The translations under genes were made by a program, and so were the position numbers. Below the pieces are notes generated by a model. The model saw only the letters and a program-made list of their open reading frames with translations, was not told where the DNA came from and searched no databases. From NCBI GenBank assembly GCA_000002445.1, contig CP000071.1:1504001-1568000 (forward strand): a DNA stretch of 64,000 bases, given 5' to 3'. This DNA comes from Trypanosoma brucei (Eukaryota). Below are positions 4,989-35,991 of this stretch, one piece after another. How positions within the stretch are numbered: the first letter of the stretch is position 1; every line of letters starts with the position of its first letter.

Positions 4989-5140
4989 ACGCGCGGCGCC
5001 TCTTTTTCTCTAGAGTGACAGCCCAGGTTTGTGCGCTCAATTAACTTCGTTGATTGTGGCGCTAGCTGACAACAGCGTGCGGTGGTGGTGGGAAAAGGGG
5101 TAAGGGAGGCACCGAAGCAAAGGTGTTTGTTTTGTTTATT

Positions 5141-17920: not shown

Positions 17921-18285
17921 CCCTACAGTGAGAAGAGATGCCTTGCGCTTCGTTTGTTCACATGACGCATGATCGGCGTGCTTTTACACTTATATCTGCG
18001 AAGCTCGTGTTTCTTCCTTTTTATTTTTTTAAAAAAAGCTTCAATGTTTTAATGGGGCGGCGATGTGAAACGTGGGGCTACGAGCGTGAGGTGAACTCGG
18101 CTAATTATTATGAGCAGGAGAAGAGAGAAGTGGTGAGGGCGGTACTGCGCGCCGTGAAGACATGTGTAATATTTGCACTGCGTGAAATTGAATCATGAAG
18201 AGGAATGGAGATGACACGGGTTGATGTAGAAGAGAGGAAAAAATTTCTAGTAGTAGCGGTTTCGTAGTGACGAGTATAGTTAATT

Positions 18286-18290
<5 letters not shown>

Positions 18291-18318
<28 letters not shown>

Positions 18319-18320
18319 GT
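18291..18320. repeat. (TA)n microsatellite
   Basis: tatatatatatatatatatatatat read directly. Confidence 0.9.
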
Positions 18321-19446: not shown

Positions 19447-19448
<2 letters not shown>

Positions 19449-19477
<29 letters not shown>

Positions 19478-19478
19478 C
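19449..19478. repeat. (TA)n microsatellite
   Basis: aaatatatatatatatatatatatatatgcg. Confidence 0.9.
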
Positions 19479-19719
19479 GTGGGTGAAGGAAATGGGAACA
19501 ATTTTCACATGAAGCAAAAAAATAAAATAAAAAGGAAAAAAAAAGGAAAAAAAAAGAAGAAAATTGGATGAGGAATGAAGGGGAGGAAAGAAGAAGAAAA
19601 AGAAGAGGAGGTAAAATAATAATTAAAAAAAAAAAAGAGCACAAAAGACATAATGAAGCAAAAAAAAAAGGAAAAAGGAAAAAGGAAAGGAAAGGAAAAA
19701 GTGAAAATGAATATATGCA

Positions 19720-19724
<5 letters not shown>

Positions 19725-19763
<39 letters not shown>

Positions 19764-19860
19764 AATATATATATATATGTTTATACGCTGAGACATGTTA
19801 TCAAAACGAAACGAAACAAAACAAAACAAAAAACCAAAAAAAACAACAACAACAACAACA
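19725..19860. repeat. Compound microsatellite: (TG)n/(TA)n, then (AAAC)n and (CAA)n
   Basis: tgtgtgtatatatatatatatatatatatatatatatgtaaatatatatatatatg ... aaacgaaacgaaacaaaacaaaacaaaa ... caacaacaacaacaacaacg. Confidence 0.9.
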
Positions 19861-20888
19861 ACGAGTACACCTTATGGATAGCAAAAGGGGGTTATTATGA
19901 TCATATAAATATGTGGTCTTTACATACGTGTGATTATTATATACAATTATATTCAGAATTGTTCATTTATTCGCATCACACATTCATTCATTCATTCAAA
20001 AACATATACACATATGAATTTTGTATGAATAAGCACACTTATGTACTCATATAACTTTTCCTCTTTGATTTTGTTTTATTTTCTGTCTTATCATTTAGGT
20101 TGCTTCCGTTTGGTATTCTCTGTGTTATATTCCATTTATTTTTCTAAAAAAAAAGGAAATAATAATTTTTTTTGTTTGTCTCACTGGTCTCTATTACTTC
20201 CTTCCATTTTTATGCTTTCACAAATAAGGCGGCTCTGACTATTATTATTGTTATTATTATTTGGTGGAAAAAAAGGCAAAACAAAAAAAAAAAAAGAACA
20301 GGAGTAAACACCAAATGTAAGCTACCAGGTGCGAAGGCACAAAAAAACAAAAAAGGAAAAATAACAGAGGGAAGGAGACAAACAACCGGGGACACATACA
20401 AAAAGGAGAAAAGAAATGAAAAAAAAAGAAGAGAAATTATTACTTACACATGGCTTCACATGAAAACATGAGAATTGTATACATGATCATATATTTTTGA
20501 AAAAAAAAATGCATGAAAAACACTTACACTTATATGTTTACAAATTTATGCTAATGTGTTATTGCGGCCACTAAAAAGAAAACAAAAAAAACCTAACGGG
20601 TGCTCGGACAAAAAAAGAAAAAAAGTGGAAATGAAGGGATGAAGGGTTTAAACATTTCAAGATATTTATCAAATATAATTTAAATAAATATATATGCAAG
20701 TGAAAAAGGATATGTATGAATAGAGATGAAAGATAAAAAAAATGTAGGTTTATGTCTCAGGGTTGAAAGAAGGAAAAAAATAAAAAGAAAAAATAACAAC
20801 ACCACCACATCCATTTCTTTTTCTCTTTTTTTTTTTTTTACAAAATTTCCTTTTTCCCCCTTTTTTCCTTTTTTTTTTGTTTTAAATG

Positions 20889-20915
20889 TTTGTGCTTGTG
20901 CTTGTGCTTGTGCTT
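20889..20915. repeat. (TTGTGC)4 hexanucleotide repeat
   Basis: tgtgcttgtgcttgtgcttgtgctt. Confidence 0.9.
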
Positions 20916-22782
20916 TTTTTTTTCCTTCATTTTCTCATCCCTCTGATTTTCAGTAGTGTCAGCGGTGTAAAATTTGTAGAATGGATTCATCGGTTAATTT
21001 TTTTTTTATGTGTGTGTATGTTTGATTTTTTTTTCTTTTTTTCTTCCACCTTTGTTTAAATATGAACAATTTTTTTTTTCCAAATAAAAAATGTATAGTG
21101 GTGTTAAAACACATAACGGAGGTGATGAAGTGCATGCTTCTCTATTTTGTTCCCATTTGTTTGTTGTTTTCTTTTTTCTTCTGTTTTTTCTTTTCTCTTT
21201 TTTCTTTTTTTTTTAAATATATTTGGTTGTGTGTGATTATTTGACTATTTGAAATGGCGTGTGAGAGGCCTCATTTTTGAGAATGCGGGGGAAATTAAAA
21301 AAAAGAAAAAAGAACAGGAGTGATAAAATGATACAAATAAAAGTTTTTTTTTTTAAAAAAAATAAAAAAGAGGGAAGGTGAGTGAAGGAGAGGGGAAGTT
21401 TTTTCTTTTTCTTTTGTTTTTTTTAATTTATGTTCTTGGAATTAGTGAACTCAACTGTCCACCTGTTCATTTTACTTTTTTTTTTTTAGTTAATTCATTT
21501 CGGTTTTATTATTTTTCTTATTTCTACTTTTATGCAATAATTTCTCTGCTTTGTGATGATCTTTAGTGCTAAGAACGAAAAGTGAGAGGGAAAGGGGGGG
21601 GGGAAAATAAAAATATAAATATATATGTTTATAAAATAAAACAAGACAGAACAAAACAAAACAAAATTTAAAATAAAAACCCATACTTTTATGTTTTAAT
21701 TTAGCGTTCGCCAAGCTGCGACGGATGTTTTATCTGTCTTATGCGTGTATGTGTATGCATGTGAGTGTGTCCGTGTCTGTAAAAGTCAGCTCATAAATAA
21801 TTATATATATAAGTATTTATATATATATTTATTTATTTATAAATACAAATGCAAGTTTTCATTCTTCAAAAATGAAAACATTTCACCCATTCAAACACAT
21901 TCGCATGCACACAAAAAGAAAAAAAAAGAAGAGGATTATATTTAAAAAAAAATGGACAAAAAGCGTTCAGCCGAGGGAGGGAAGTGGAGAGAAACTGTGA
22001 AGGGTTTCACATATTAAGAGGGAAAATGCAAAATTAAAGGGGGAGGGGGAAAAAAGGAGTCAAGAATGTGTTAGCCTTATGATTATTTTAACAGTTGTTT
22101 TTATTTTTTTTATTTATTTATGTTTTTTTTTTTTCGCCTCCCAGTGTTTGCCTGCACCAGCGTCGATGTTCTGTTTTGTGTCTGTGTGATTTCCGATTCT
22201 TATTTTCCCGCTTCTGCTTTCGTCTTTAATCTTTTTTTAAAAAAAATGTTTCAAAGCGGTTTATTTATTTATTTATTGTGTTGTAGTTTTTTTTTGTGTG
22301 TGTTTACTCTCGTGTTCACCTTTTACTTGATCCACTCTTTTTGTTTTGTTTTCCTTTATTTTCCTTTTTTGTTTTTAAGTCTTATTTTTAGCGTCGTTTG
22401 GTTCCGCTATTTATCCGCTCCATTTGAGCCCGCGAATGAACATATCTGAAGAACCGTATTTGTCTTTTTTTTTTGTTTTTTTGTTTTGTTTTGGAGTATG
22501 TGGCTGTTTTTCCCCCCATCTTTTTTTCCCCTTTTCCTTTTTTTTTTCCCTTCCCTTCCCTTCCCCTTCCCTTTCTTTTTTTTCTTTTAAATTAAAAAAA
22601 AAAACAATTATTTTTACACTGCTTTCTAGTTTTTTTTTTTGAAGAAAAAAAGAAAAGAAAAACAATATTATTGATCTCTCACTCCCTCTTCATATTGACT
22701 CTCCCCCTCCCATAATATATATGAGTTTATACAAATATTCATTATCACAAGGAGACGCCACTAATAATAAATACTGTCGTTT

Positions 22783-22914
22783 ATTCTTTTGTTCTCTTTT
22801 TTTTTTTTGTTAAATATCTGCTTTATGCATTTATTACACATTTTTTTCTTGTTTATTCTCCCTATATTTATCTTAATGTTTCCTGCACTTACACATGTGG
22901 GTATCATTAAAGAG
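22783..22914 (+). promoter_or_regulatory. Long polypyrimidine tract plus AG upstream of cytochrome c, followed by an unusually A-rich 5' leader
   Basis: ttattcttttgttctcttttttttttttg...tttttttcttgtttattctccctatatttatcttaatgtttcctgcactt, then aaAGAG at ~22911-22914. About 145 nt of A-rich sequence lies between this site and the ATG at 23060. Confidence 0.45.
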
Positions 22915-23059
22915 TTTTTTTTTAAAAAGAAAAAACAAACCAACAACAGCATCAGCAATAATAATAATAACAACAATATATTAACAAAAAAGTAAAAAAA
23001 AAGAAGAAGAGAAAAGAAATAATTCAAAAAAAAAAAGAAAAATAAAAGAATAAAAGTAA

Positions 23060-23404
23060 ATGCCACCAAAGGAGCGTGCAGCACTTCCACCCGGTGACGC
23101 AGTGCGTGGGGAGAAACTTTTTAAGGGCCGGGCGGCGCAGTGCCACACGGGTACAAAAGGCGGTTCCAACGGTGTTGGGCCTAATTTATATGGAATTGTT
23201 GGCCGTAAATCCGGAACTGTTGAGGGTTTTACGTACAGCAAAGCCAATCAAGATTCCGGTGTTATGTGGACTCCGCAGGTACTTGACGTGTATTTGGAGA
23301 ATCCAAAGAAATTTATGCCCGGCACTAAAATGTCTTTTGCAGGTTTAAAGAAACCACAGGAACGCGCCGACCTCATCGCATACCTCGAGACATTAAAGGA
23401 CTAA
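23060..23404 (+). CDS. Mitochondrial cytochrome c (114 aa) with the kinetoplastid single-cysteine haem-binding motif AxxCH
   Basis: [31 protein letters not shown]...[13 protein letters not shown]...[31 protein letters not shown]. This is the canonical class I cytochrome c fold, including the Met ligand region (PGTKMSF), but the CxxCH motif is replaced by AAQCH. That replacement is the hallmark of euglenozoan cytochrome c. Confidence 0.95.
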
Positions 23405-23577
23405 AATGAGATAATAGAAAAATTTATAATATTTATAATATAACTACATTATTGAAAATTTATGTTATCATACATGTATTATTAAAGCAGAGGATGGAAG
23501 GAAGAAAGGAGGGGGGGGGTTATGTTATGATGGCAAGGATTCCATTATTATTATTATTATTTTACTTTGTGGCTATC

Positions 23578-23612
23578 GTTATCATTATCATTATCATTAT
23601 CATTATCATTAT
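23578..23612. repeat. (ATCATT)n hexanucleotide repeat, about 5 units
   Basis: atcattatcattatcattatcattatcatt, about 170 nt downstream of the cytochrome c stop. Confidence 0.9.
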
Positions 23613-24242
23613 TTATATTTGTTATTTGGGACTATGAGACGAGCAAGAAAACGAAGGAAAACATGACCAATAGTTAATGTTAATGTTAATGTTATTGTTT
23701 TTTTAATTTTTTTTTGTTTTTGATAAGAGGAAAAAGAAGAAGAGACGCCATGAAGGAAAAGAAAAGAAGAACATAAATGAATTACAAAACGAAAATGAAA
23801 AGAAACACAAATCAAAGTAGAATTAAGTGAAACTAAATTTAAAGATGTGTGTGGTGTTGTCACCGTAAATGTTCCTATGCCATGAGAGGTTTATTTTATT
23901 TTTTGAACCTATCAAGATTCTTCTTTTTTTTTTCCTTTTCGTTCCCTTCCGCTCCATTTGCCGGAAAACTACGGTGCGACTTCACATTAATTTAGTGTTT
24001 TGTCTCTTTTGTTTCCCCCCTCCTGACTTTTTGCCATGTCAGAAGAGCAAAATAAAAAACAAAATGAAAAGGAGGAAAAAAAATAAAAATAAAAAAGAAA
24101 AGAGCAAAAGAGGGATGTACGTTATGATGGGGATGGAGGGGGGGGGAGGGAATTTTAAACCGCAACAATACACATTTATATTTTTTATATTTATGAATGC
24201 AAACATGAAAAGGGTGAATAAAAAGAATAAACAGGAACAAAA

Positions 24243-24377
24243 ATATGTAAAAGGATGGAGATTGGGGAGGGGAGGAGGAGGAGGAGGAGGAACAGAGGAA
24301 TATTGCGGTGTGCAATTTTTTGTCTTTGTCTTTTTCTTTTTTTATTTTTATTTTTATTTTTCCCTCCCCTCCCCAAT
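24243..24377. repeat. Inverted repeat (stem ~24-25 bp, spacer ~85 nt) with G-rich and C-rich arms, overlapping a (GGA)n tract
   Basis: The left arm is ggatggagattggggaggggag at 24243-24267. The right arm is ctcccctccccaatctccatcc at 24353-24377, an exact reverse complement of the left arm, read by eye. A (GGA)7 run follows the left arm. Confidence 0.7.
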
Positions 24378-25369
24378 CTCCATCCTCCTCTTGCACTTTA
24401 ACGATACGTAAGGTGTTTTGTTATTGAAAAGAGGAGTGTTTGTGTGGCAGGCCAAGTATTACAAGGAGAATAAAACAAACAAATAAAAGAGCAAACAAAC
24501 AAAAGGAAAAGGAGGGATTCAAAAAAGAAAAAGAAAAGAGGAAAGGGAAGCGACCGCAACTCCCTGAGTTCTAAGAACTTTCTTAATCCATATACATGGG
24601 GTAAATACATTTATAAGGGATAATTGAAATAATAATAATAATAATTAAAAAAAATCAAGACAGAACGCAACAGGATATACATCTATATCTATATTATTGT
24701 TATTATTATCGGCCTAAAAAAAATTTCTCGCAATAGTTTTGTTTTTTTTGTCTATGTGCCCGTGTGCTTGTGTTTTTGTTTGTTCCCTTTGTTGTGGGCA
24801 TTTCCAGCGGCCGCATCTTTACAGCCATCACAATTAAGCCCATCAAATGACCGCTCCATGCATTACTCTTCTTCCTATTTCTACTCCATTTCGTCTTATT
24901 ATTATTACTGTTGTTGTTGTTGTTGTTTTTATTGTTATGAACTTTATTGTTGCATATACTCGGTTCTTCATGTATTTTGCCTCCGCATGTCACCTTTCGT
25001 TTTGCTTCATTTCTATTTTTCCCTTTCCCCCCTCCGCCCTCTGGTCTCCTCCTCATCCTTTTGCGTGTGAAGCAGAGGGAAAAAGAGGTGAGGTAGCGGT
25101 AAAAAATAAATTTCCTTTCATAAAGTTACAAATGTTTGTAGGCTTGCATATTTATTAGGGAAGTTGGGTATATAAACATGTAGGAAACAGGTTTGCCGTG
25201 TCGTTCCTTCCGTTCATGCTTAATATAAGCCGTGTGGATATTTGTGACATGTGTGATTATGTTGAGTTATGTCTTGTGACTTACCAGGGATAAGGCCTGA
25301 AAACGGAGTAGTGGAGGAAGCGGACGAGACTGAAACGGTAAGACAGTGTGAACCTCCGCACTGACCTCA

Positions 25370-25444
25370 GTTTTTTCGCCCTTTTTTTCCTGCTTTTTTT
25401 TATTTTCCATTTGATTGATTATCTTTTTTTTTTTCTTTCTGGAA
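25370..25444 (+). promoter_or_regulatory. Polypyrimidine tract plus AG upstream of the 578-aa ORF
   Basis: ttttttcgccctttttttcctgcttttttttattttccatttgattgattatctttttttttttctttctggAAG. AG at ~25443-25444. First ATG at 25691. Confidence 0.5.
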
Positions 25445-25690
25445 GTGACCTCTCTTTTGTAGTGGTAGTGTTGGTGGATAGCGTTGTGGTGCAAAATCTG
25501 CCCCGTTGAGCGTCCGTTAGACGAGGCGTCACGGCCTGCCAATAGAGGCGGAGTTGTCAAAAGTATAATAAATTAAACGGGCACTCACAACAACAACAAC
25601 AGTAACCAAACACCGCTTGTGCCGAAAGTGGAAGAAAAGGGAGAGTGAGGCAGCAGGTGAAGGAGAGGGGCAGTAGATATTCTTTTGGCA

Positions 25691-27424
25691 ATGCAGCATC
25701 ACTTCCACCTCAATCGCAGTTTCGATATGCAGTTGTCTCCCGTTGCAGCCTCTATTATCGACTGGGCTCCAGCTGGCCGCACCGGTACCGTTGGGAATTC
25801 CCACACTCCCGCATGTTCCCTTCCAACTGTAGGCGTAAACGGGTCACACACTCATGCGGTGGATTCGACGTCATTAAGCGGTGCGGCTAAACTTAAACCT
25901 GCTGAAAATCTCTCTGGCATGCGGGTGCTGCACCGGTGCACTCGGCAGTTGCTTGCCAATTCGTGCGTGTTGGTGCCGATCTTTTCACGGGGTACGTTTA
26001 ATGTGAATGCGGGGCTGCTCGCTTCTCTCGGTCTGACCGGCGGGTGGAACGATGCCTGCTCGCGGCCTTCCGGTTTCCACGCCAATGATGTGCTGCAATT
26101 GGAGGCGACGTGGGGCAAGAGGCAATGGGCGGGGATATTTAACTTGGTGTGTTTCTCTTGGATGTCTACCACTCTTCCCCTATTTGAGTTTATTACGGTG
26201 TCACCTCGGACAGATTCGTCGCTGCAGGTCGACCGACTGATGTTCAACTGGAGCGGTTTCTGGCGGGTGTTCGTTTCGGGTGACGGCAGTCGCCGAAATT
26301 CGCTCATATCGATGGATTCCCCCGCTGAAAGGTTTGTCGCTGACGTACCTGTTGCGCCCACTGGGAAACTACCTGACGAGAGTAAGTTGGGTGGTGTTAC
26401 CGGTGTTGATAAAAAACATGACGGGCTTTCCACTACGCCTCCGATTACCTCTAATGGTGATGATACAAGACGTGGAGGTGCCATCAGTACTGGAAAAAAA
26501 GTAAAGGTTGGTAATACCAGTGGCAATACCACTTCAATGAATGGCGATAGCGGTAGCGGCACGGCAGGGGTTTGCATGAAGAAAAGGGAAGAAGTTGCTG
26601 AGCCTGTCAGTGGCTCGAGTAGTGAGTTATGCGCCGAAACACAGAAGGTGGGTCGGTGGTGGAGGATTCGAGAGTTGCGCTGCGGTGTAGGTGTTGCTCT
26701 GAAAAATGACATCGTGAGTGCAGCAAACGCTTACTTTGGTTATAGCTTCCACCTGGGTCGAGCACTAACTTTCTCCTCGCATGTGGATGTTCTCCGTCGC
26801 GGCTGCTACTCCGTCACATGCAGCACCGATCGCTTCGACCTCGCCACGCGTCTGCGTGTCAACCACATCACATCGCATTTCACCGAGATGGATGCTGGAA
26901 TTGGTTGGCGGCCGCTACGGCACGTACCTGGCTTTACGTGCCGCCTCTCGTACTCGATGGGCCGCACATCGATGGGTTTTACTGCCCGTGATGTTACTAC
27001 TCACTGGGGTTTGGCGGCTCACAGAACTGAAACTCCGGTGCAGGCCACAGCGGTTCTACCACCACCGCTATCTTCCCTCCCTGTCCCCGTTGCTGTGGAG
27101 TCAAGGGGAGCTTTGTTACAGTTGTGGGACGCTAGCGTGGACTGGGGGCTGAGTGCAGCTCATTTAGTGCTTGGTACTCTTTTACCTTCATTAACTGGGA
27201 GCGCAGCAGCGGGGCGGCGGGTTGTAAAGGAGGGGGAGGAGGTGGAGGTTCCGGAGCATAAACCCAGGCAGTGGAATCGTCTCTCTCGAGCATTTCTTGC
27301 TGGTGTCAGCTACTGTAAAGCTTCGGTAACACAGGCGAAATTTGACCTCACGATGGGGGTGGCGACGCAGCAACCGAGACAATCGAGGCCTCTGAGGTTC
27401 TTTTTTGTTGTTTCAGCCTACTGA
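25691..27424 (+). CDS. Hypothetical protein (578 aa from the first ATG; the track opens at a TTG at 25685). The N-terminal half is Ser/Gly/Thr-rich and the C-terminal ~260 aa is beta-strand-rich, ending ...LRFFFVVSAY
   Basis: Long ORF on the same strand with coding-like composition. The C-terminal domain shows alternating hydrophobic/polar dyads (GVGVALKNDIVSAANAYFGYSFHLG, FDLATRLRVNHI, FTCRLSYSMG, AKFDLTMGVAT) and a terminal aromatic residue. No known motif was recognised. Confidence 0.6.
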   Translation: MQHHFHLNRSFDMQLSPVAASIIDWAPAGRTGTVGNSHTPACSLPTVGVNGSHTHAVDSTSLSGAAKLKPAENLSGMRVLHRCTRQLLANSCVLVPIFSRGTFNVNAGLLASLGLTGGWNDACSRPSGFHANDVLQLEATWGKRQWAGIFNLVCFSWMSTTLPLFEFITVSPRTDSSLQVDRLMFNWSGFWRVFVSGDGSRRNSLISMDSPAERFVADVPVAPTGKLPDESKLGGVTGVDKKHDGLSTTPPITSNGDDTRRGGAISTGKKVKVGNTSGNTTSMNGDSGSGTAGVCMKKREEVAEPVSGSSSELCAETQKVGRWWRIRELRCGVGVALKNDIVSAANAYFGYSFHLGRALTFSSHVDVLRRGCYSVTCSTDRFDLATRLRVNHITSHFTEMDAGIGWRPLRHVPGFTCRLSYSMGRTSMGFTARDVTTHWGLAAHRTETPVQATAVLPPPLSSLPVPVAVESRGALLQLWDASVDWGLSAAHLVLGTLLPSLTGSAAAGRRVVKEGEEVEVPEHKPRQWNRLSRAFLAGVSYCKASVTQAKFDLTMGVATQQPRQSRPLRFFFVVSAY

Positions 27425-28193
27425 GGGGGGGGGGAGGGGCGGGAGCTTCTTTTCACTTTTTTGTTGTATGTCCACATGAGGCAACTCGCTGCGTATGTGA
27501 CCATGCGGATTCGGGTGATGTGTCTCTGCCACACTGTGGAATAGTCGCATATTTGCTTCTGACAACATCGCCTCAACAGCGACGTCGAAACCATGTTGCT
27601 GCTGCTCGTCAGAAGGTGTGTGTTTGGCTTGGGAGCCTATGCCATCGGAATCGGAAGGGTTTCTCGGATTTATATCAAAATAAATATATGTAACTTCACT
27701 ATGATTGGGTTACTGACGTCGTTGCCGTCCGTATCCATCTTCCACTGATTTCGTCCGTTCAGTAAACTCAATTTCACATATATTTCCTCCTTCTTTCTTT
27801 TTGATTGTTTAAGGGCGCTTCTCCGTCGCAGTTTTGTTTCCACACCACCAAATAGACGTAAAATTCAACAAGCGAGGGGGAGTGGAGGGTTTTTTCTTTT
27901 CAAAAAGGGAAAGAGAAATATAAGAGATAGAAGGCGAAAGAGGAGCATAGGAAAGTCACTTGACCTGGTGCTAAATAACGTCGAGTTTCAAAAGGAAAAG
28001 AGGGGGGGGGAAAGAAATAAAATAAGGTAAAATATTTGTATATCTTCCTTGGTACTGTGTTGCTGCACCTCCGTAGTGTACCAGATTTCAGGTGCACAAC
28101 ATCTACATCGTTGTTCGCTTGCGTTTGACAGTTTGTTACTGTTCTCTGCAGTTTCAATAGGGGAGTTGTTGGGCTGCTGTACGCGTAAGGAAA

Positions 28194-29921
28194 ATGTCGT
28201 TATCTAACGTTGTTGCAAATAACACTATGATGGGAGTTCATAAGAACAACTCTGGCATTGGTAATGGGAATAAATCTCAAGATAATGATACTGGAAAAGG
28301 AGGGGGTGATACCGATAACAACGCTGAAACAACGGAGCAGAAGACTCACTATCAATACGTTCTTGCCATTGTCAATCCATTGGCTGGTGAAACCGGTACG
28401 TCGGGATACATTACTGAGAACCTAGTGTCGTTTTTTGGTGAGGAACGCGTGGTTCTGCTTAATAAAGACCTCTTCGCCGATCCCGCACCTTTACATGAGG
28501 CCATCCGCAAGTATGCTGTGCGATACATGTCGGACGAAGAGGAAGAAGAAGAGGAAACAAAAGGCACGGAGGTGGATGTTCGGTTGCCAACAGACGCTGT
28601 GGATGATCGTGGGACCGTCTTCGTTTCTGGTGGGGATGGAACAGTTTCTTACATTATGGATCAGATGGACGCGGTGCGGGAGATCGTAGAGAAGGAGGTG
28701 GGCAATAACGCGCGCGGTGAAGCCACCCCACGGGGGAAACCAATTTTTCCCGCTTTAGCGGTTCTTGCGTTTGGCACAGGCAATGACTTTTCAAACTGTG
28801 TAGGGTTCGGCCGTGGTTACAGTCGTGGAGGCAAATGTGGACCGCTGTGCAAAGAAGATTTGATTGAACATTATGTTCAAAAAGCCCTTACCGCTCGCAG
28901 TACACCGTTTGACCGCTGGGTGATGCAAGTAGTGCCCATGTCAGTGGCATGCAGGCAAAATGAGCGAGCCCAGCAGGGGGATGGGGGGGAGGAGGAGGAG
29001 CCACAGTCGCCGGACGGACAAAAGAGCAGTGTGACGCAAGGTGGACTTCATGATTTGTTTATTGATTGGGACGCACTAACTGATGACCCTGATTGCAAGA
29101 TTTACCGCTTCATTAACTATGTTAGTGTCGGGTTCGATGCATATGTGACACACAGGTTCAGCACATTTCGCAAAAACAACCCAAAATTCTGCAGTAAACG
29201 TTGGAGAAATAAGGCCGTATATTGTTGTTTTAGTTTTCGTGCGGCGGTAAGTTGTTCCCCACTGAAGGGGTGTGTTCCGAGTGTTTGGGTTAGTGAATCG
29301 ACGTGTGGAGAAGGGGGATACGTTTCCCCTGCCGGGAGTGGGTCCCACATGACGAATGTGCAACTTCCCAGTGGAAGTAAAACATTAATGCTTACCAACG
29401 TCACCTCATACGCAGCGGGGACAAAACCATGGAACGCGGGGAGCGGCAAACTGTACCGCAAAGGATCAAGTAAGAGCACAGCTTCAATCACACCGGTATG
29501 TGTGAATGACCGAAAGTTGGAGGTGCAAACTCACAGCGGCCTTATCCACATGGGAATGATGCAAATGAATGCGGGGAAAGGAGCAAACAAAATTTCTCAA
29601 ACCAACGACGTCATCTTCTTCGTTTCGTGCTGCCCAGAGGACATCTACAAGGGTAAGCATCAACAACCACCGGCGCGTGAGGGGGAAGGAAAGCAGTCGA
29701 AGATGAACCTGGAGGGCGCAGCAAACAACTTGAAGAAAGAAAGCAAGGAGTCAGTGTCTCTTTACGTACAGTTGGATGGGGAACCTATAATGATTATTAC
29801 CACCCCAAGTATAGTACGGATCAGGGAACTGCGCACACCCCGCGTATACGTGCGTTGTCTGAATGAAGATGTGCTTCTCGAGTCACCATCAGAAGAAGGA
29901 ACAGAAGGGGAAGGGGCGTGA
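28194..29921 (+). CDS. Diacylglycerol kinase-like lipid kinase (DAGK catalytic-domain family), 575 aa
   Basis: The DAGKc signatures are YVLAIVNPLAGETG (substrate/ATP loop), VFVSGGDGTVSYIMDQMD (GGDG motif) and LAFGTGNDFSNCVGFG (compare PLGTGNDLARCLGWG in DGKs). There is an acidic insertion SDEEEEEEETKG and Gly/Asn/Asp-rich N- and C-terminal tails. Confidence 0.7.
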   Translation: MSLSNVVANNTMMGVHKNNSGIGNGNKSQDNDTGKGGGDTDNNAETTEQKTHYQYVLAIVNPLAGETGTSGYITENLVSFFGEERVVLLNKDLFADPAPLHEAIRKYAVRYMSDEEEEEEETKGTEVDVRLPTDAVDDRGTVFVSGGDGTVSYIMDQMDAVREIVEKEVGNNARGEATPRGKPIFPALAVLAFGTGNDFSNCVGFGRGYSRGGKCGPLCKEDLIEHYVQKALTARSTPFDRWVMQVVPMSVACRQNERAQQGDGGEEEEPQSPDGQKSSVTQGGLHDLFIDWDALTDDPDCKIYRFINYVSVGFDAYVTHRFSTFRKNNPKFCSKRWRNKAVYCCFSFRAAVSCSPLKGCVPSVWVSESTCGEGGYVSPAGSGSHMTNVQLPSGSKTLMLTNVTSYAAGTKPWNAGSGKLYRKGSSKSTASITPVCVNDRKLEVQTHSGLIHMGMMQMNAGKGANKISQTNDVIFFVSCCPEDIYKGKHQQPPAREGEGKQSKMNLEGAANNLKKESKESVSLYVQLDGEPIMIITTPSIVRIRELRTPRVYVRCLNEDVLLESPSEEGTEGEGA

Positions 29922-30885
29922 TTTTGTTTTCTTGTTTTCTTGTTTTCTTGTGTTTTTTTTTAATGATGGCTTGCAGGTTCTACAAATGAGTTGTGGGTTT
30001 AGATGATGCTGTTACCCAAGGATGAAGAGGTGGAACAACCGCTGAAAAGGTGGGGGAGCTGTGGTGGGAGGTTTCTGTTGAAGCATATAAGATCCAGTTG
30101 TTCATGAATGTATGTGAGAATCCCGATTCCCCAAACCCAACCCTCCATGTGCCTTTGTGGCTTTATAAGCGGTAGAGCGCGTGCTCGGGATATATGTGCA
30201 CGTATGTAACTGTTTTTCTTTGTTTTCTTGGTTGATTGTTACATTTTTTGAGTTTAAAAAAAATTGTGTATTACCTTTTTGTGGGGCACTGCTCATTCGG
30301 GGCAGCGCTCATGGAAATGTCGTGCCTAATAACTTTCTTTTTCTTTCCTTTCCAAAATCTCGTTGCTCTGGAAGGCACGTATAGAGCTTTCCGCATTTCG
30401 GTTACCGCGGCTCCCTCCCCCTCTTTTTTTTTTTTGCGGGGGGGGGAGAAGGGGGTTGGATGCCCATTTACACAGACGTATGTGCTCGTAGTGCATAAAA
30501 AGTCGCACGGTTGGGTTCCCTTCTTTTTTTAAAAAAAAATCCCCCCATCTCAACAGTCCTTAGTGTACACAATAGAGCTTGTTGGTGGGTTACCGCTTTT
30601 GTGTTATACTAACAATGCAATGGTGAATCCTTCGTAATTGTGCGCCTTGCGTGCTCGGTGTGCGTACATTTCCATTTTCTTCTTTTCCCCTTTACTTCGT
30701 TGATGCTAAGAACGATGCCACCTTATAATAACTTTCTTTGGTGATTTTCGCTTGATATAGTATATATATATATAAACATGTATACTGTTTAGCCTGATTT
30801 ATTCTTGACCGTTCCTTTATCCCTTTTGCTTTCGGTTCCGCTATTCGTTTCTGCGGCATCCAGCGGTCGTGCCATATAAACGTAT

Positions 30886-30975
30886 GTCACATACTCCTTT
30901 TTTGATTCTATTTCTTTCTCTGCCCATTCGTTTCCTCCCAAAAATAAATAAATAAACAAAATTATTAAATAAAAG
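30886..30975 (+). promoter_or_regulatory. Polypyrimidine tract plus AG 17 nt upstream of the small-ORF ATG
   Basis: atactccttttttgattctatttctttctctgcccattcgtttcctccc ... aaaAGg (AG at 30974-30975), then gccATGg at 30992 in good initiation context. Confidence 0.55.
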
Positions 30976-30991
30976 GTTTAGTGGCCGCGCC

Positions 30992-31279
30992 ATGGCGTTT
31001 CAAACACCGTGGATTTTTATCGCTGTCATTGGTGTTCCACTCTTTATGGTCTACACGAAGGCGCGGCGCATGGACGCGAAGGAAATACACGAAATACAAA
31101 TGCGGGTGAAGTATCGTTCCGAGTTTTGGGAAAAGGGAAATGAGTTTGTGCGGAGCCACCGTGAAATCGTCCTGAAAGGACTGAAAGAAACGAATGATCC
31201 GATGGTTGGAAAGGAGTTCAGCGAGTTGGAGACCAATGGCGTAACAAAAACTCACCACTCGATTTGGAAACTGTGGTAA
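30992..31279 (+). CDS. Small single-pass membrane protein (95 aa): N-terminal transmembrane helix followed by a charged, helical soluble tail
   Basis: MAFQTPWIFIAVIGVPLFMVYTKARRMDAKE... The hydrophobic segment is immediately followed by a basic patch (signal-anchor-like), then a K/E-rich tail. It has a near-ideal upstream splice signal and ATG context. It is the only substantial ORF in a 2.4-kb gap between two same-strand genes. Confidence 0.5.
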   Translation: MAFQTPWIFIAVIGVPLFMVYTKARRMDAKEIHEIQMRVKYRSEFWEKGNEFVRSHREIVLKGLKETNDPMVGKEFSELETNGVTKTHHSIWKLW

Positions 31280-32361
31280 TTTGTGTTTATGTGTCAGGTG
31301 GCCCTGCAACAATATCGTGCCTTATCGCTTTCTCTTTGGTTTTATTTGGTTTCTACTTCATCCAGCTGTAGGTTCTATAGCGTATGTGTGTGTATGTGTG
31401 TGGGGAAAAAAGAAAAACTTGAGGGCTCATCTTATTTCTTATTTGTGTCATCAGTTTTGACATCTTGACGTATTTTCTGCTAATTGAGTTTGTTCCCGTT
31501 TCGCAATTTTTTTGGTCTCGCTCTAAGCAATTGTTGAGGCTGTTGGGTACACGACGGTGAACGTGCGCATAGGCACTGTTTCATCCATGTGTTGTGTGGT
31601 GTGGAATTGTAAAAAAATAAAAATAAAATAGTCTTTGTTGTTTTTGTTTTGATATTTTTGTTCTTCCAATTAACTGCACTGCACCGTGAGTCTTCCATTT
31701 TTTCTTTTTTAAGCGATACGTGTGTTCAATCATATGTTACGTTTCAACTTGACTACAGCTGCTCTGTGTCGAAAGCAGCGCTCATACATGATAGGTTGTT
31801 TTACTTCCATGCCATGTACAGATTGATTATGTTTGTTTATCAGCACCTCTCACCTTCACTTCACTTTACTTCACTCACACTAATACGTTTTTACTTCCCC
31901 CAAGGGCTTGAAACAGAAAGAAAAAAGTGAAAAGGAAAGAGCCCTGTGGAGCGGGTTGGAGTGTGTTCAGGGCAAAAGGCGGCGCCGTTGGTGTGCCATT
32001 GTTTTTCTTTCAGAGATTTTACGTATACACTCGCGTCGCGTAGATCTCCATTTGGCTTCCATCCTTCCACTGCCCACGAGATTCTACACACACACAAACA
32101 CGTGTGTGTGTCAAGAGAGAGAGAGAAGGAAAAAAAAAGGAATTTATCGTACCCCGGTCAAGTAAACCATATTCTGTTTATATACGGACGTTGAGCCGGT
32201 GGGGTCCTGGTTCCATTCCACGCGGAATAACAGATTTAAGGGGACCTTAACTGAGCAATAAAACGTCTGTGACTACTGCTTCTTAACGCAAACCTGCTGA
32301 CCAGCCTGTGGTAGGTTAACTGCCGTTACGTCCATATAACTTGAAGCTGAAATCGGAACTA

Positions 32362-35300
32362 ATGGGTGTGTGCCAGTCAAATCTTATTACATCGGAAGCC
32401 GTAAAAGATGGGGGAAGGGAAAACTGCAAATGCCGCTGGTTACAACTGGACTCGAACAAGTTAAACATGGAGGGTAAAACCAGCTGTCCCGAAGCGGCAA
32501 ATGAATTCACCGCCCGACTTGCCGAAAAGTCTGCACGACGGTTCCCGTCAAGTGGTTCGGCTGGGACCCAGACATGCAGCATCAGAACGTGTCCTACTCT
32601 ACTGAATGCAGATTTTGATGTTTCTCACCAGTCGCTGCTTGGTCGTTGGTGGAACCTTCCTGTTGTATCATCGGGAGATAAATTTTCATTTGGCACCACT
32701 CTGTCAATTCCGAGTGAGTCGTCAACTCCCTACACTGCGCTGTCGGTGCCTACCACCGAAGAGGCCGTTAAGAGCGGTTTGTCTCAAGAAAGTGGGCGTT
32801 TCCGTCCCTCGCGTTGGATATCGCTCGTTTGCCCCATACCGGCATCGAGTTCGCTCTCAGGCTCTGGTACGGGATTACACGAGGGTTGTTGTCGTGGAGG
32901 AGGATGTTATGGTGAATGCAACCGATATCTGTCGGCCAGAAGTAACTGTTCAGGTATTTCATCAGAGAATTCTACCCTCTTAGCCTGCTTCTTCGAAGCA
33001 AAAGGTGTCTTTGCATTTCGTATATCCAGTGAAGAGTCCACCGCAAAGGATGCAGCGTTCCTACGTAAACGCGGGTTGCACGCTTGTCGTGGCACCTACG
33101 TGCGACGCTGGGATCGAGTGGAGTGCTTTTCAGCGAGCAATCAGTCAAACGCGCTCACCATATTTCCCATGAAGCCATCTTCGTGTCCCTCCTCCCTCAG
33201 GGAGGGCAGTCCGGTGACTCCGTTCGGTCAGTTAAGCACAGATGACGCAAGAGCCCCGTCCACTGCCGATAGTGGACAAGAATCAAGCCGTTCCTCAGCT
33301 GACCGTAATTCCGTACACTCGTCGAGCGCGCATCCTTCGAGTCTATTGCCATCGTCAGAAACCTCAAATGGATCGGGTACGCCTATGTTTCCGAAGGAAT
33401 GTCTTCACTGCCACCACTTTGCAACCGTTAATGATCTCACCGAGTCTGTTTCATGCAACTGCATGAAGTCTCAAACACCGCTAGTTGACCAGGGCAGTTG
33501 GGCCCCAAATTTGGAAATGGCGTCGTATGACACCTGTGATTCCCCGTATGACCCTCTCGCCTCTTCACTGTTACCGAAACGAAGGGGAACTTGTGCTATG
33601 ATAGAGGAACCTTTAAATCCGAAGCCAAACAATGTGCACGAGCCAAAATCGCGTGGATCAGCAGTGCAGCCGGTACCTGCTGGCATCATCGTCAGCTGCT
33701 TTGACGTTTCGATTGACCCTTCAAAGTGGAAAGAGTGTGGATATCGACGCACAGCCCTTGATTGCCTTAATGAAGCCATATTGTCATCCGGTTGTAACTT
33801 TGGCGAGGGCGTCGTGACGAGCGTTATGTACGGTGGAATGTGTGTTGTGGAGTGCCCATCTGAGGCGGCCGTTGCTCGATTACAAGATTCCATGAGAGTA
33901 AACAAGTGGGATACCTCGGTGTCGAGCAAGTCACTTAAAGCAGCAGCCAAAAGAGCGGCGCGTAAAGGGCACAGCGGCAGTGCGGCGTCGGGTTCCGACT
34001 CTTTGCCACATGATTCGTATCGTGTTGTAATGTGTGTAGGTGGAAAATGGCCCTTTGATGAGTTGGACACCAGCAAGTGGAGAAAAGGCGACGTTAACAG
34101 TATTTCAGCAGACTGCCCCCATGCTGCTGCATCAATTACGCCGTGGATCGATGTTGACGCAGTGGCGCTGATTGTGCGTAACTGGGCTGTGCATCTACTT
34201 TCTCACATGGAGTATGCCAAGCCCCTTGCGGCTTACGTGCAGCGGTTTCGGGGCCTATTGCCGTTCCTGCGCCTCGCACCTGCAGAGGATATCCTTCATG
34301 ATTACGTGCATGTCAGCAGTGGCAGCAAATTCACTGAAAACGTGAAGGAAAACGAGGCCATTGCTTCATCTTGGGTGAACCACAGCTACCTTAGTACCGA
34401 AGGAGTGTGCGATACTACCGCTTGCTCCTCCGTTGATGGGGAGGGGCCCCCGACACGTGGAGAAAACGCTCCGGCACAACACGTGGATGCTGAGATTCCT
34501 CCCTTGGATCTGCGCTCGGTGAAGCGTCAAGGTGGGAGTAGAGGATTAAGATTCAGATCGAAAACGCTGTTTTGTAGTATGGTTCGTGGGAAGGAAGCTC
34601 TCAGCAGGGAGGAGGGTGGCAAGTCATGCACGACTGCATCACATACCAATTATGACCCTTTATCCGGCGGGGGCGGTTCATGTGTGGAGGGCAGGTCGGC
34701 TAAAAGCCCCTCCTCTTGGCCTTCAGTACTTCAGCCTCTTCCTTATGATGAGGAGCAGGTATTATGGGAGCGCGCCATGCTTGAGGTAAAGGCTGTGAAC
34801 ACCGAACTGAGGGAATTAATAGACGCCCGACATGCTACAGAGAAGGAGCTTGCGCAACTGAACTCCACCTTACAAATCATGAAGCGCTTGTTCTTACCTC
34901 ATTCGAGTATGGGCGAGGTGAATCCGCTGTGCATGTACCTCACTACAGCTCTGGAGGAGCCGACAGAACTTCCGGGGCGGCGTGCCTTCGTGGGTGGTCG
35001 TGACTGGTTTCCGTGTCTCGCCGCATTGTTGTCAAGCCCGAAAAACGCGCTCTGCAGTATTGAGATCGTTCAGCCCATGATCATATCATCTCTTCCCCAA
35101 CTTGGAATGGTTACTGGTTTACTTTATCATGATAGCGCCATGAAGAAGTTGCAGAGCCTTGTCATCCCATGCGATCAACTCTGTGGCTTCTCGACCCGTG
35201 CGAATGCACCCGCATCTGGAAGGAAAGGACACGGATTTCGAACGAAAACTACACTGCGAGGGGAAAGTAGTGGAAAAGCCAATTGCGGTCCGAGCGCGCA

Positions 35301-35991
35301 GCGCTTCCGCCGACTGAGAAATGGTGTTAGAAATTGCAAGTTCTTTCTGACACCTAAGCAGGTCAAGGATGTGTTTCTCGCCCTCACGACGTCAGTGTCA
35401 AACAACACTCGACATCCAAATTTCGTACTGTCGCTGAAGGGATTCCCTGTGGGTGGCACGAAGTCGGGCCAGTCGAAGATACGTCGATTCATTCACAGAT
35501 TTTTTCACGTGAAAAGTGGTTGGGAGAGCGCGACAACGCAGAAACCTCCTCGGGCTTCTAGTTTGTCGCCCGCGTTTGAGGAAACCTTGACGATCAATGG
35601 AAGAATGGACGAAATGGAGTTTATTTGTTGCGCTGAGGATGACGTATGCATCGCTTTGCGTGATGCGGAACGAAGACCCCATTGCATGCTGTTGCGCAGG
35701 CGTGAGAAACATCTATCGTTAGCCAATGATACACCCGGTTACTCACCCGTGTCAGGGGGGAAAGAAGGGGAAGGCGATGAGGAGTTGTCATCTACCGAGT
35801 CGTGTTGGGTGTATGGCCTACACTCCGAGAGGCTTTTAGCTGCAGTCATGGAGTGCGTTAACCTTCTTCTGCTTGATAGGGCACCGCAAATGTTCGAGAC
35901 ACTGAAAGTGGCGTGTGACCGACGGGGTTCCAAACGACTGGAAGGCACCGCCGCTACGAGGCACTGGGGCGGAGTTACGCTCACTTGCTGA
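32362..35991 (+). CDS. Hypothetical protein (1209 aa from the first ATG; the track opens at a TTG at 32341) with an N-terminal MGVCQS dual-acylation consensus
   Basis: Uninterrupted 3.6-kb ORF. The first ATG gives MGVCQSNLITSE..., with Gly2, Cys4 and Ser6, a fit to the N-myristoylation motif G-x-x-x-S/T with an adjacent palmitoylatable Cys. The rest is Ser/Cys-rich with no recognised catalytic motif. Confidence 0.65.
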   Translation: MGVCQSNLITSEAVKDGGRENCKCRWLQLDSNKLNMEGKTSCPEAANEFTARLAEKSARRFPSSGSAGTQTCSIRTCPTLLNADFDVSHQSLLGRWWNLPVVSSGDKFSFGTTLSIPSESSTPYTALSVPTTEEAVKSGLSQESGRFRPSRWISLVCPIPASSSLSGSGTGLHEGCCRGGGCYGECNRYLSARSNCSGISSENSTLLACFFEAKGVFAFRISSEESTAKDAAFLRKRGLHACRGTYVRRWDRVECFSASNQSNALTIFPMKPSSCPSSLREGSPVTPFGQLSTDDARAPSTADSGQESSRSSADRNSVHSSSAHPSSLLPSSETSNGSGTPMFPKECLHCHHFATVNDLTESVSCNCMKSQTPLVDQGSWAPNLEMASYDTCDSPYDPLASSLLPKRRGTCAMIEEPLNPKPNNVHEPKSRGSAVQPVPAGIIVSCFDVSIDPSKWKECGYRRTALDCLNEAILSSGCNFGEGVVTSVMYGGMCVVECPSEAAVARLQDSMRVNKWDTSVSSKSLKAAAKRAARKGHSGSAASGSDSLPHDSYRVVMCVGGKWPFDELDTSKWRKGDVNSISADCPHAAASITPWIDVDAVALIVRNWAVHLLSHMEYAKPLAAYVQRFRGLLPFLRLAPAEDILHDYVHVSSGSKFTENVKENEAIASSWVNHSYLSTEGVCDTTACSSVDGEGPPTRGENAPAQHVDAEIPPLDLRSVKRQGGSRGLRFRSKTLFCSMVRGKEALSREEGGKSCTTASHTNYDPLSGGGGSCVEGRSAKSPSSWPSVLQPLPYDEEQVLWERAMLEVKAVNTELRELIDARHATEKELAQLNSTLQIMKRLFLPHSSMGEVNPLCMYLTTALEEPTELPGRRAFVGGRDWFPCLAALLSSPKNALCSIEIVQPMIISSLPQLGMVTGLLYHDSAMKKLQSLVIPCDQLCGFSTRANAPASGRKGHGFRTKTTLRGESSGKANCGPSAQRFRRLRNGVRNCKFFLTPKQVKDVFLALTTSVSNNTRHPNFVLSLKGFPVGGTKSGQSKIRRFIHRFFHVKSGWESATTQKPPRASSLSPAFEETLTINGRMDEMEFICCAEDDVCIALRDAERRPHCMLLRRREKHLSLANDTPGYSPVSGGKEGEGDEELSSTESCWVYGLHSERLLAAVMECVNLLLLDRAPQMFETLKVACDRRGSKRLEGTAATRHWGGVTLTC

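What the first reader, a model, noticed from the sequence alone, without database searches (positions are those of the whole stretch)
30992..31279. 95-aa single-pass membrane ORF with ideal trans-splice signals in an otherwise empty 2.4-kb gap
This ORF is easy to miss because of its size. It has a ~55-nt polypyrimidine tract, an AG 17 nt upstream and an ATG in strong context (gccATGg). It is on the same strand as the polycistron and encodes a coherent protein. That protein has one N-terminal TM helix (WIFIAVIGVPLFMVY) flanked by KARR, then a charged helical tail, with no low-complexity stretch. The signal-anchor topology is typical of small accessory subunits of organellar membrane complexes, such as respiratory or translocase subunits, or of tail/signal-anchored outer-membrane proteins.
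Basis: seen in the sequence. Interest (0 to 1): 0.55.

Follow-up and report, generated by a model that had tools for sequence, protein, structure and literature searches.

The report
Known small trypanosome mitochondrial membrane protein
The 95-codon ORF is a real, expressed gene, but it is already annotated as Tb927.8.5150 in Trypanosoma brucei and already detected in published ribosome-profiling and mitochondrial proteomics data; its function is still unknown.

Summary
The ORF is at 30992-31279(+). The strongest pyrimidine tract in the gap lies upstream, and the first AG after it is 17 nt before a gccATGg start.

It is a real gene. It is conserved and syntenic from Trypanosoma to Bodo saltans and in deeper kinetoplastid-like environmental contigs. 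dN/dS is about 0.1-0.2, and only the sense frame stays open in all nine orthologues.

It is not new. The protein is identical to Q57UI7 = Tb927.8.5150, "hypothetical protein, conserved". The annotated interval starts at the base after the predicted AG. Published ribosome profiling shows translation in both life stages, with 3.3-fold higher efficiency in procyclics. The ImportOmics study detected it in purified mitochondria (31.6% coverage), saw it fall to 0.29x after ATOM40 knockdown, and listed it among 331 new mitochondrial candidates.

Which membrane, and which complex, remain unknown.

New here: the family has a sharp motif (TM-TK..RMDaR..HE..M..rY..FWeKGN.F) with no Pfam or PDB relative. 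In 9 of 9 lineages with context it lies directly downstream of a DAG-kinase-like gene that has no anchor of its own. That is a testable lead but weak evidence for a functional link.

The parts
30894..30938 (+). Polypyrimidine tract that directs trans-splicing of the small gene
   Evidence: 87% pyrimidine over 45 nt. It is the only 45-nt window in the 29922-32340 gap with at least 85% pyrimidine.
30974..30975 (+). AG spliced-leader acceptor (predicted; agrees with the annotated gene start)
   Evidence: First AG downstream of the pyrimidine tract. The published gene interval begins at window 30976, the next base.
30976..30991 (+). 16-nt 5'UTR
   Evidence: The annotated interval is 304 nt, the 288-nt CDS plus 16 nt. 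The offset of 1,504,000 (= 47 x 32,000) places the extra 16 nt at the 5' side. This is an inference from coordinates; I did not see spliced-leader reads.
30992..31279 (+). CDS of Tb927.8.5150 (Q57UI7), 95 aa, 11.354 kDa, pI 9.3
   Evidence: 100% identical to AAZ13279.1 / Q57UI7. dN/dS is about 0.1-0.2. Only the sense frame is open in all 9 orthologues. Ribosome footprints and MS/MS peptides are on record.
31010..31054 (+). N-terminal transmembrane signal-anchor segment (residues 7-21, WIFIAVIGVPLFMVY) with family-invariant Pro16
   Evidence: KD 2.33 over 15 residues. The N-flank is uncharged and the C-flank TKARR has 3 K/R in 6 residues. P16, K23 and R26 are invariant across 29 core sequences of the family; K23 and R26 also across the 35 full-length sequences, where P16 is at least 90% conserved.
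31055..31189 (+). Conserved helical core (residues 22-66) carrying the family motif TK..RMDaR..HE..M..rY.a.FWeKGN.F
   Evidence: The AlphaFold2 model is one helix over residues 6-66, with pLDDT 75-82 in this part. The motif is conserved in 35 sequences. Residues 45-68 are amphipathic, muH about 0.5.
31262..31276 (+). C-terminal aromatic tail (IWKLW)
   Evidence: Many family members end in a basic-plus-aromatic tail such as KKKGWW, KKSWW, KKKTWGLF or WWRVW. Its role is unknown.
28194..29921 (+). Upstream neighbour Tb927.8.5140, a DAG-kinase-like gene (candidate partner only)
   Evidence: Pfam DAGK_acc 3e-26 and DAGK_cat 1.4e-8. ID confirmed by literature and exact primer matches. It lies directly upstream of the small gene in 9 of 9 lineages with context. 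It has no TM segment or presequence-like N-terminus, and the catalytic motifs are intact.

Best explanation
This is Tb927.8.5150, an independently trans-spliced gene in a + strand polycistron of T. brucei TREU927 chromosome 8.

Shown:
- It encodes an 11.4-kDa protein found in Kinetoplastea (named members) and in kinetoplastid-like environmental contigs.
- It is translated in both life stages, more efficiently in procyclic forms.
- The protein is present in purified mitochondria, and its level depends on the outer-membrane import pore ATOM40.

Inferred:
- It has no presequence. The N-terminal segment (6 uncharged residues, a moderately hydrophobic Pro-containing helix of about 15-18 residues, then TKARR) acts as an uncleaved signal anchor. 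It holds the protein in a mitochondrial membrane with the short N-terminus in the intermembrane space.
- The conserved, largely helical residues 22-66 sit on the other side, either cytosol (outer membrane) or matrix (inner membrane).
- That invariant helix is most likely a docking surface. The protein would then work as a small accessory or adaptor subunit of a mitochondrial membrane assembly, not as an enzyme.
- The only partner candidate the data point to is the DAG-kinase-like protein encoded immediately upstream, which lacks any anchor of its own. I put that specific pairing at about 20-25%.
For: Identity and annotation: 100% match to Q57UI7 / AAZ13279.1. The gene ID and interval come from the Vasquez 2014 supplement. 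Six TREU927 primer arms match the window exactly.

Coding: pS 0.54-0.88 against pN 0.09-0.29, giving dN/dS 0.08-0.18. Only the sense frame is open in 9 of 9 orthologues.

Splice signals.

Translation: at least 5 reads in all four libraries; translational efficiency 0.99 in bloodstream forms (rank 4107) and 3.22 in procyclic forms (rank 782 of 7782). The direction matches the COX subunits highlighted in that paper.

Mitochondrial: 11.354 kDa, 31.6% coverage, 4 peptides; ATOM40-RNAi ratio 0.29 (log2 -1.78, n=3, P=0.030) against thresholds of -0.62 and 0.05. It is listed in Supplementary Data 6 among the new mitochondrial candidates, with no mark in what appear to be the TargetP and MitoFates columns; I did not read that file's header.

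Architecture.

DAGK linkage: adjacency in T. brucei, T. cruzi, T. vivax, T. melophagium, L015, Bodo saltans, L009, L013 and L016. The other flanks are lost in the deepest lineages. The DAGK-like proteins have no TM segment or presequence.
Against: - No direct localisation of this protein was reachable: the stored TrypTag table is truncated and hyperLOPIT has no entry.
- It is absent from the earlier outer-membrane, membrane and respiratome proteomes that make up the reference set. It has no relative among solved structures, including the T. brucei ATP synthase and mitoribosome. So no complex is identified.
- ATOM40 dependence does not separate outer from inner membrane, because 62% of detected OM proteins are also in the importome.
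- The DAGK link rests on gene order alone. Kinetoplastid gene order is generally not functional, the pair sits inside a larger 5130-5160 synteny block that survives in Bodo, and evidence that the kinase is mitochondrial is weak: only a TriTrypDB term, while TrypTag N-terminal tagging gave endocytic/cytoplasm.
- The kinase orthologues carry a Cys cluster that could anchor them by acylation without a partner.
Confidence: 0.85

Rival explanations
1. Inner-membrane accessory subunit or assembly factor of an OXPHOS complex. The N-terminus faces the intermembrane space and the basic helical domain faces the matrix (positive-inside rule). It would be needed mainly in procyclic forms, when the respiratory chain is built.
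For: The ATOM40-dependent drop (log2 -1.78) is as strong as for the matrix enzymes listed next to it. It is absent from the outer-membrane proteome contained in the reference set. Its translational efficiency rank shifts by -3325 towards procyclics, the same direction as COXVI (-2010) and COXV (-644).
Against: It is not in the respiratome or mitochondrial membrane proteome columns of the reference set. It has no sequence relative in any solved structure, even with a 35-sequence profile. A 2026 complexome preprint on the T. brucei respiratory chain does not name it in its text. The stretch after the TM contains acidic residues, unlike a Bcs1-type internal presequence. There is no UAUUUUUU procyclic element in the gap.
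Confidence: 0.35
2. Outer-membrane signal-anchored protein with its helical domain in the cytosol, inserted with the help of pATOM36. It would act as a receptor or tether, for example for the DAG-kinase-like enzyme.
For: It has the textbook signal-anchor layout: a short uncharged N-terminus, moderate TM hydrophobicity (KD19 1.3-1.9 across the family), 3 K/R within 6 residues after the TM, and no predicted presequence. The gene two upstream, Tb927.8.5130, is an outer-membrane proteome protein. The DAGK-like partner candidate has no import signal.
Against: It is not in the Niemann 2013 OM proteome, even though subunits such as ATOM11 are. Its strong ATOM40 dependence is more typical of internal proteins, although 62% of OM proteins share it.
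Confidence: 0.35
3. The ORF is non-functional, lying by chance inside the 3'UTR of the upstream kinase gene.
For: ORFs of this size are common in the window, and a longer antisense ORF overlaps it.
Against: Purifying selection, frame-specific conservation across 9 lineages, its own splice signals, ribosome footprints and MS/MS peptides.
Confidence: 0.01

Closest known systems
Tb927.8.5150 / UniProt Q57UI7 (T. brucei 'hypothetical protein, conserved') and its annotated orthologues (T. cruzi Q4DVD7, T. congolense G0USB1, T. vivax G0U1A9, Bodo saltans CUG88946.1 'transmembrane protein, putative')
   Same: It is this gene: 100% identity, with the same coordinates once the window offset is applied.
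   Different: Nothing differs. The existing records carry no function, domain or localisation.
Mitochondrial outer-membrane signal-anchored proteins (the Tom20 / Tom70 / OM45 type in yeast; pATOM36-dependent alpha-helically anchored proteins in trypanosomes)
   Same: A short N-terminus, a single moderately hydrophobic N-terminal helix, a positively charged C-flank, no cleavable presequence, and a mitochondrial location. The comparison with the yeast proteins is from my own knowledge.
   Different: There is no sequence similarity to any of them. Outer-membrane location is not shown, and the protein is absent from the published OM proteome.
Small single-pass supernumerary subunits and assembly factors of OXPHOS complexes
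   Same: Size, single TM segment, mitochondrial location and procyclic-biased translation.
   Different: No hit to any Pfam family or to any solved respiratory-complex or ATP-synthase chain. It is not in the T. brucei respiratome list.
Human AGK, a DAGK-family lipid kinase that is a TIM22-complex subunit (from my own knowledge; a lead only)
   Same: It is a precedent for a DAGK-fold protein working at a mitochondrial membrane together with small membrane partners.
   Different: AGK carries its own N-terminal anchor and lacks the DAGK accessory domain. Tb927.8.5140 has DAGK_acc and no anchor. No homology to the small protein is implied.

Membership tests
Trans-spliced protein-coding gene of a kinetoplastid polycistron | Same strand as the polycistron, with a polypyrimidine tract followed by the first AG upstream of the ATG | tested here: met
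   All ORFs of at least 250 aa that are likely genes are on the + strand. The tract is at 30894-30938 and the first AG at 30974/5. The annotated interval starts at 30976.
Trans-spliced protein-coding gene of a kinetoplastid polycistron | Purifying selection on the reading frame and syntenic orthologues | tested here: met
   dN/dS 0.08-0.18. Only the sense frame is open in 9 of 9 orthologues. Synteny is shown.
Trans-spliced protein-coding gene of a kinetoplastid polycistron | Evidence of translation and of the protein itself | tested here: met
   Published ribosome footprints in bloodstream and procyclic forms. MS/MS: 4 peptides, 31.6% coverage.
T. brucei mitochondrial importome (Peikert et al. 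2017 definition) | log2 ratio (ATOM40 RNAi +/-Tet) of -0.62 or lower with P<0.05 in gradient-purified mitochondria | tested here: met
   log2 -1.78, P=0.030, n=3. Listed in Supplementary Data 6.
Mitochondrial outer-membrane signal-anchored proteins | N-terminal TM of moderate hydrophobicity, positively charged C-flank, no presequence | tested here: met
   No mark appears where other rows of Supplementary Data 6 carry the presequence-prediction marks; I did not read that file's header.
Mitochondrial outer-membrane signal-anchored proteins | Residence in the outer membrane with the C-domain in the cytosol | not testable with these tools
   It is absent from the OM proteome column of the reference set. 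The sub-mitochondrial map and the pATOM36 datasets are not held.
Subunits of structurally solved mitochondrial complexes (ATP synthase, respiratory complexes, mitoribosome, translocases) | Detectable sequence similarity to a chain in the PDB | tested here: not met
   Only two chance-level hits with the single sequence (E 1.3-1.4) and none with the 35-sequence profile at E up to 10.
Any Pfam family | Score above the gathering threshold | tested here: not met
   The best hit is BatA at E=0.22, 12.4 bits against a cutoff of 25.9. No family is shared by more than 2 of the 35 members.
Membrane anchor or partner of the DAG-kinase-like protein Tb927.8.5140 (hypothesis, not an established family) | Conserved genomic linkage beyond general synteny | tested here: inconclusive
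   Adjacency holds in 9 of 9 lineages and outlasts both flanking genes in L013 and L016. But it lies within a larger block that is conserved to Bodo.
Membrane anchor or partner of the DAG-kinase-like protein Tb927.8.5140 (hypothesis, not an established family) | Physical interaction or co-localisation | not testable with these tools
Localisation data for the kinase are weak and conflicting.

The most novel reading that the evidence does not exclude
Tb927.8.5150 is the dedicated membrane anchor or regulatory subunit of the anchor-less DAG-kinase-like enzyme Tb927.8.5140. Together they would form a kinetoplastid-specific two-gene lipid-kinase module at a mitochondrial membrane. Selection for this pairing would explain why the two genes have stayed adjacent in every kinetoplastid lineage examined while the surrounding genes were reshuffled.
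Probability: 0.2. Interest if true: 0.55.

Novelty: already known. Interest (0 to 1): 0.27.

Why it matters
As a gene call it adds nothing: the gene has been in the reference annotation since 2005, and two published genome-wide datasets already show that it is translated and mitochondrial.

The modest value lies in three points.
1. This is a case where reading sequence alone correctly predicted the gene, its splice acceptor and its organellar membrane character.
2. It belongs to a sharply conserved small-protein family across kinetoplastids, with no Pfam model, no solved-structure relative and no assigned function.
3. Its unbroken adjacency to a DAG-kinase-like gene gives a cheap, concrete hypothesis for two otherwise uncharacterised trypanosome proteins.

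The closest GC-rich trypanosomatid-like homologues appear only in raw SRA assemblies, so the gene may be missing from some Leishmaniinae annotations.

Tried and rejected
- Pfam scans of the protein and of all 35 family members gave only noise.
- PDB sequence searches found nothing meaningful: two chance-level hits (E 1.3-1.4) with the single protein and none with the profile.
- The AlphaFold2 model is a single long helix (pLDDT 67), so I did not run fold searches; they would be meaningless.
- Word-indexed homology searches with the broad and the trimmed alignments added no named organisms. Cluster look-ups named only Bodo saltans and Cryptobia/Trypanoplasma borreli.
- Full-text literature searches for Q57UI7 and for Tb927.8.5150 and neighbouring IDs returned nothing.
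- The stored TrypTag table is truncated and lacks the gene's row. The hyperLOPIT supplements have no entry. The 2026 complexome preprint has no held supplements and no mention in its text.
- The pATOM36 (PNAS 2016) and sub-mitochondrial map (Cell Rep 2023) papers are not held.
- I looked for the UAUUUUUU procyclic regulatory element in the 3' region; there is no exact copy.
- The gap has no Rfam or tRNA hits.
- Rejected: the antisense 115-aa ORF (stops in 6 of 9 orthologues), and the idea that the family extends outside kinetoplastids (no named member supports it; all five unnamed loci that show flanking genes look kinetoplastid-like).
- My own error: the Tb927.8.5160 start was entered 2 nt out of frame. 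I took 5160 synteny from the tblastn results instead.

Full report
**1. The observation**

The start context is gccATGg.

Upstream, the best 45-nt window (30894-30938) is 87% pyrimidine; stretched to 55 nt it is 82%. It is the only place in the 2.4-kb gap that reaches 85% pyrimidine, and only 0.5% of all 45-nt windows in the 64-kb sequence do so. The AG at 30974/30975 is the first AG after that tract, with none between -130 and -18. This is the arrangement expected for a trypanosome spliced-leader acceptor.

The gap between the DAG-kinase-like gene (stop at 29921) and the next gene (first in-frame ATG at 32362) is about 2.4 kb and has no Rfam or tRNA hit.

ORF length alone means little. The gap contains + strand ORFs of up to 98 aa, and a 115-aa antisense ORF overlaps the candidate.

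**2. It is a real gene**

Homologues exist in T. congolense, T. melophagium, T. cruzi, T. rangeli and T. vivax at 60-81% identity.

Between species, synonymous sites are saturated (pS 0.54-0.88) while nonsynonymous differences stay low (pN 0.09-0.29). Where it can be estimated, dN/dS is 0.08-0.18.

Across nine orthologous loci, the sense frame is the only one of six that is always open. The antisense frame that gives the 115-aa ORF in T. brucei has stops in six of the nine.

Gene order is conserved: cytochrome c, Tb927.8.5130, the DAG-kinase-like gene, the small ORF, then a large gene. This holds in T. vivax and T. cruzi, in T. melophagium, and in a GC-rich trypanosomatid-like contig, L015.

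**3. It is already annotated and already detected**

The protein is 100% identical to AAZ13279.1 / UniProt Q57UI7, "hypothetical protein, conserved". The same sequence is recorded for T. b. gambiense and T. equiperdum, and UniRef lists it for four Trypanozoon taxa.

The upstream gene is Tb927.8.5140. Six 80-nt TrypTag primer arms designed on TREU927 match the window exactly, so the window is TREU927 chromosome 8.

The ribosome-profiling supplement of Vasquez et al. 2014 (PMC3973304) lists Tb927.8.5150 at Tb927_08_v4:1534976-1535279(+), a 304-nt interval, which is the 288-nt CDS plus 16 nt. With an offset of 1,504,000 (47 x 32,000), this maps to window 30976-31279. The annotated gene therefore begins at the base after the predicted AG and ends with the stop codon. 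I read that as a 16-nt 5'UTR. It is an inference from coordinates, not from reads I saw.

In the same table the gene passed the filter of at least 5 reads in all four libraries. Translational efficiency is 0.99 in bloodstream forms (rank 4107 of 7782) and 3.22 in procyclic forms (rank 782). The paper highlights cytochrome oxidase subunits as shifting in the same direction by smaller amounts: COXVI by -2010 ranks and COXV by -644, against -3325 here.

**4. It is mitochondrial**

The evidence comes from the ImportOmics study (Peikert et al. 2017, PMC5436138).

- Supplementary Data 1 lists Tb927.8.5150 / Q57UI7 at 11.354 kDa, identical to the mass I compute.
- Coverage is 31.6%, which is 30 of 95 residues, from 4 peptides.
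- In gradient-purified mitochondria the ratio after ATOM40 knockdown is 0.29 (log2 -1.78, n=3, P=0.030).
- The paper's thresholds are log2 of -0.62 or lower and P<0.05.
- The protein is listed in Supplementary Data 6 among 331 new mitochondrial candidates. It has no mark where other rows carry what I take to be TargetP and MitoFates marks; I did not read that file's header.
- It is absent from the reference set built from the earlier mitochondrial, membrane, outer-membrane and respiratome proteomes.
- 62% of detected outer-membrane proteins are also ATOM40-dependent, so this result says "mitochondrial" but not which membrane.

**5. Anatomy and family**

The protein has these parts:

- six uncharged N-terminal residues;
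- a 15-18-residue hydrophobic helix, WIFIAVIGVPLFMVY (KD 2.33 over 15 residues);
- the basic flank TKARR;
- a polar stretch that AlphaFold2 models as one continuous helix with the TM (residues 6-66, pLDDT 75-82);
- a poorly predicted linker, then an aromatic tail, IWKLW.

It has no Cys and a pI of 9.3.

A profile search of 1.84 billion representative proteins found 32 hits, nearly all small proteins. They share the motif TM-TK..RMDaR..HE..M..rY.a.FWeKGN.F. P16, K23 and R26 are invariant in the 29-sequence core alignment, and F45 and W46 are nearly so.

The named members are Bodo saltans CUG88946.1 and Cryptobia/Trypanoplasma borreli transcripts. The rest come from metagenomes and SRA assemblies. 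All five of these unnamed loci that show flanking genes have dense, one-strand gene arrays. I therefore treat the family as kinetoplastid-wide, with no evidence for it elsewhere.

There is no Pfam match for any member and no PDB relative, even with the profile. That rules out the solved T. brucei ATP synthase and mitoribosome chains.

**6. The DAG-kinase linkage**

In every lineage where flanking genes are visible, the small gene lies directly downstream of a DAGK_cat/DAGK_acc gene on the same strand. These are T. brucei, T. cruzi, T. vivax, T. melophagium, L015, Bodo saltans (L014), and three deep environmental lineages, L009, L013 and L016. In the deep lineages the small proteins are only 25-44% identical to the Trypanosoma ones.

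- The 5130-like upstream gene is retained in 6 of the 8 loci tabulated (and also in T. melophagium).
- The 5160-like downstream gene is retained only in the trypanosomatid and Bodo loci.
- In L013 and L016 only the kinase/small-gene pair remains.

The kinase orthologues keep GGDGT and GTGND. They have no TM-like segment, and their N-termini are neutral or acidic, not presequence-like.

This makes an anchor or partner role for the small protein a reasonable hypothesis, but the evidence is thin:

- Kinetoplastid gene order is generally not functional.
- The pair sits in a larger block that survives in Bodo.
- The kinase's mitochondrial status rests only on a TriTrypDB term.
- Its TrypTag N-terminal tag gave "endocytic, cytoplasm[weak]". 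Neighbouring rows give the same label to N-terminal tags of proteins whose C-terminal tag is mitochondrial.
- Most orthologues have a Cys cluster after GFGxGY that could anchor the kinase by acylation.

**7. Verdict**

Observation confirmed. Interpretation supported.

The thing is Tb927.8.5150, a known but uncharacterised kinetoplastid small mitochondrial membrane protein with a signal-anchor layout.

I am confident (about 0.85) in [quoted passage not shown]. I am split roughly evenly between outer- and inner-membrane residence. I give about 20% to the specific DAG-kinase-partner idea.

Novelty as a finding: already known. Interest is low to moderate, resting on the unnamed conserved family and the persistent kinase adjacency.

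Noticed in passing
window 23060-31279: Four consecutive + strand genes have mitochondrial links: cytochrome c Tb927.8.5120 (23060-23404), Tb927.8.5130 (25685-27424; outer-membrane proteome and TrypTag 'mitochondrion'), the DAGK-like 5140, and 5150. My rough estimate is that a few such runs are expected genome-wide by chance.
   Followed up: partly
window 28194-29921 and orthologues in L001, L009, L013, L014, L016: The DAG-kinase-like orthologues carry a cysteine cluster right after the GFGxGY motif (CCMCVCC, CCVACRCC, CCCCC, CAFCCCCC, LSCLCCC). In T. brucei it is reduced to KCGPLC. It may be an S-acylation membrane-attachment site.
   Followed up: no
window 30965-31312 (-): A 115-aa antisense ORF overlaps the real gene and is longer than it, but it is interrupted by stops in 6 of 9 orthologues. 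It is a useful reminder that ORF length is not evidence of a gene here.
   Followed up: yes
window 32341-35991: In the next gene (Tb927.8.5160), the first in-frame ATG at 32362 gives MGVCQS..., an N-myristoylation/palmitoylation-type start. Called product lengths for the orthologue differ between strains (1209 vs 1138 aa in L006, L007 and L008).
   Followed up: no
P0002 (T. congolense G0USB1) and L004 8001-8243 (T. vivax): The T. congolense record has a 44-aa N-terminal extension shared by no orthologue, so its start is probably mis-called. The T. vivax orthologue stops at 80 aa and lacks the aromatic C-terminal tail.
   Followed up: no
L015 5861-6181; proteins P0011 and P0012: The closest non-Trypanosoma homologues, from GC-rich trypanosomatid-like contigs, exist only in SRA assemblies and not in NCBI or UniProt protein sets. 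The gene may therefore be unannotated in Leishmaniinae genomes.
   Followed up: no
family alignment A2 (C-termini): Many family members end in a basic-plus-aromatic or hydrophobic tail (KKKGWW, KKSWW, KKKTWGLF, HKIFGLF, WWRVW, IWKLW), separated from the conserved core by a variable linker. It could be a second membrane-contacting or partner-binding element.
   Followed up: no
window 17920-23060 and 30400-30540, 30760-30775: There is about 5 kb of low-complexity, repeat-rich sequence between the LRR-type gene and cytochrome c. The DAGK 3' region contains T/G homopolymer runs and a (TA)n microsatellite.
   Followed up: no
TrypTag supplementary table: In the plate V4286_20190109 rows I read, several N-terminal tags are labelled 'endocytic, cytoplasm[weak]'; for two of them (Tb927.10.3580 and Tb927.11.940) the C-terminal tag is mitochondrial. 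The same label on Tb927.8.5140 may therefore be a mis-targeting artefact.
   Followed up: no
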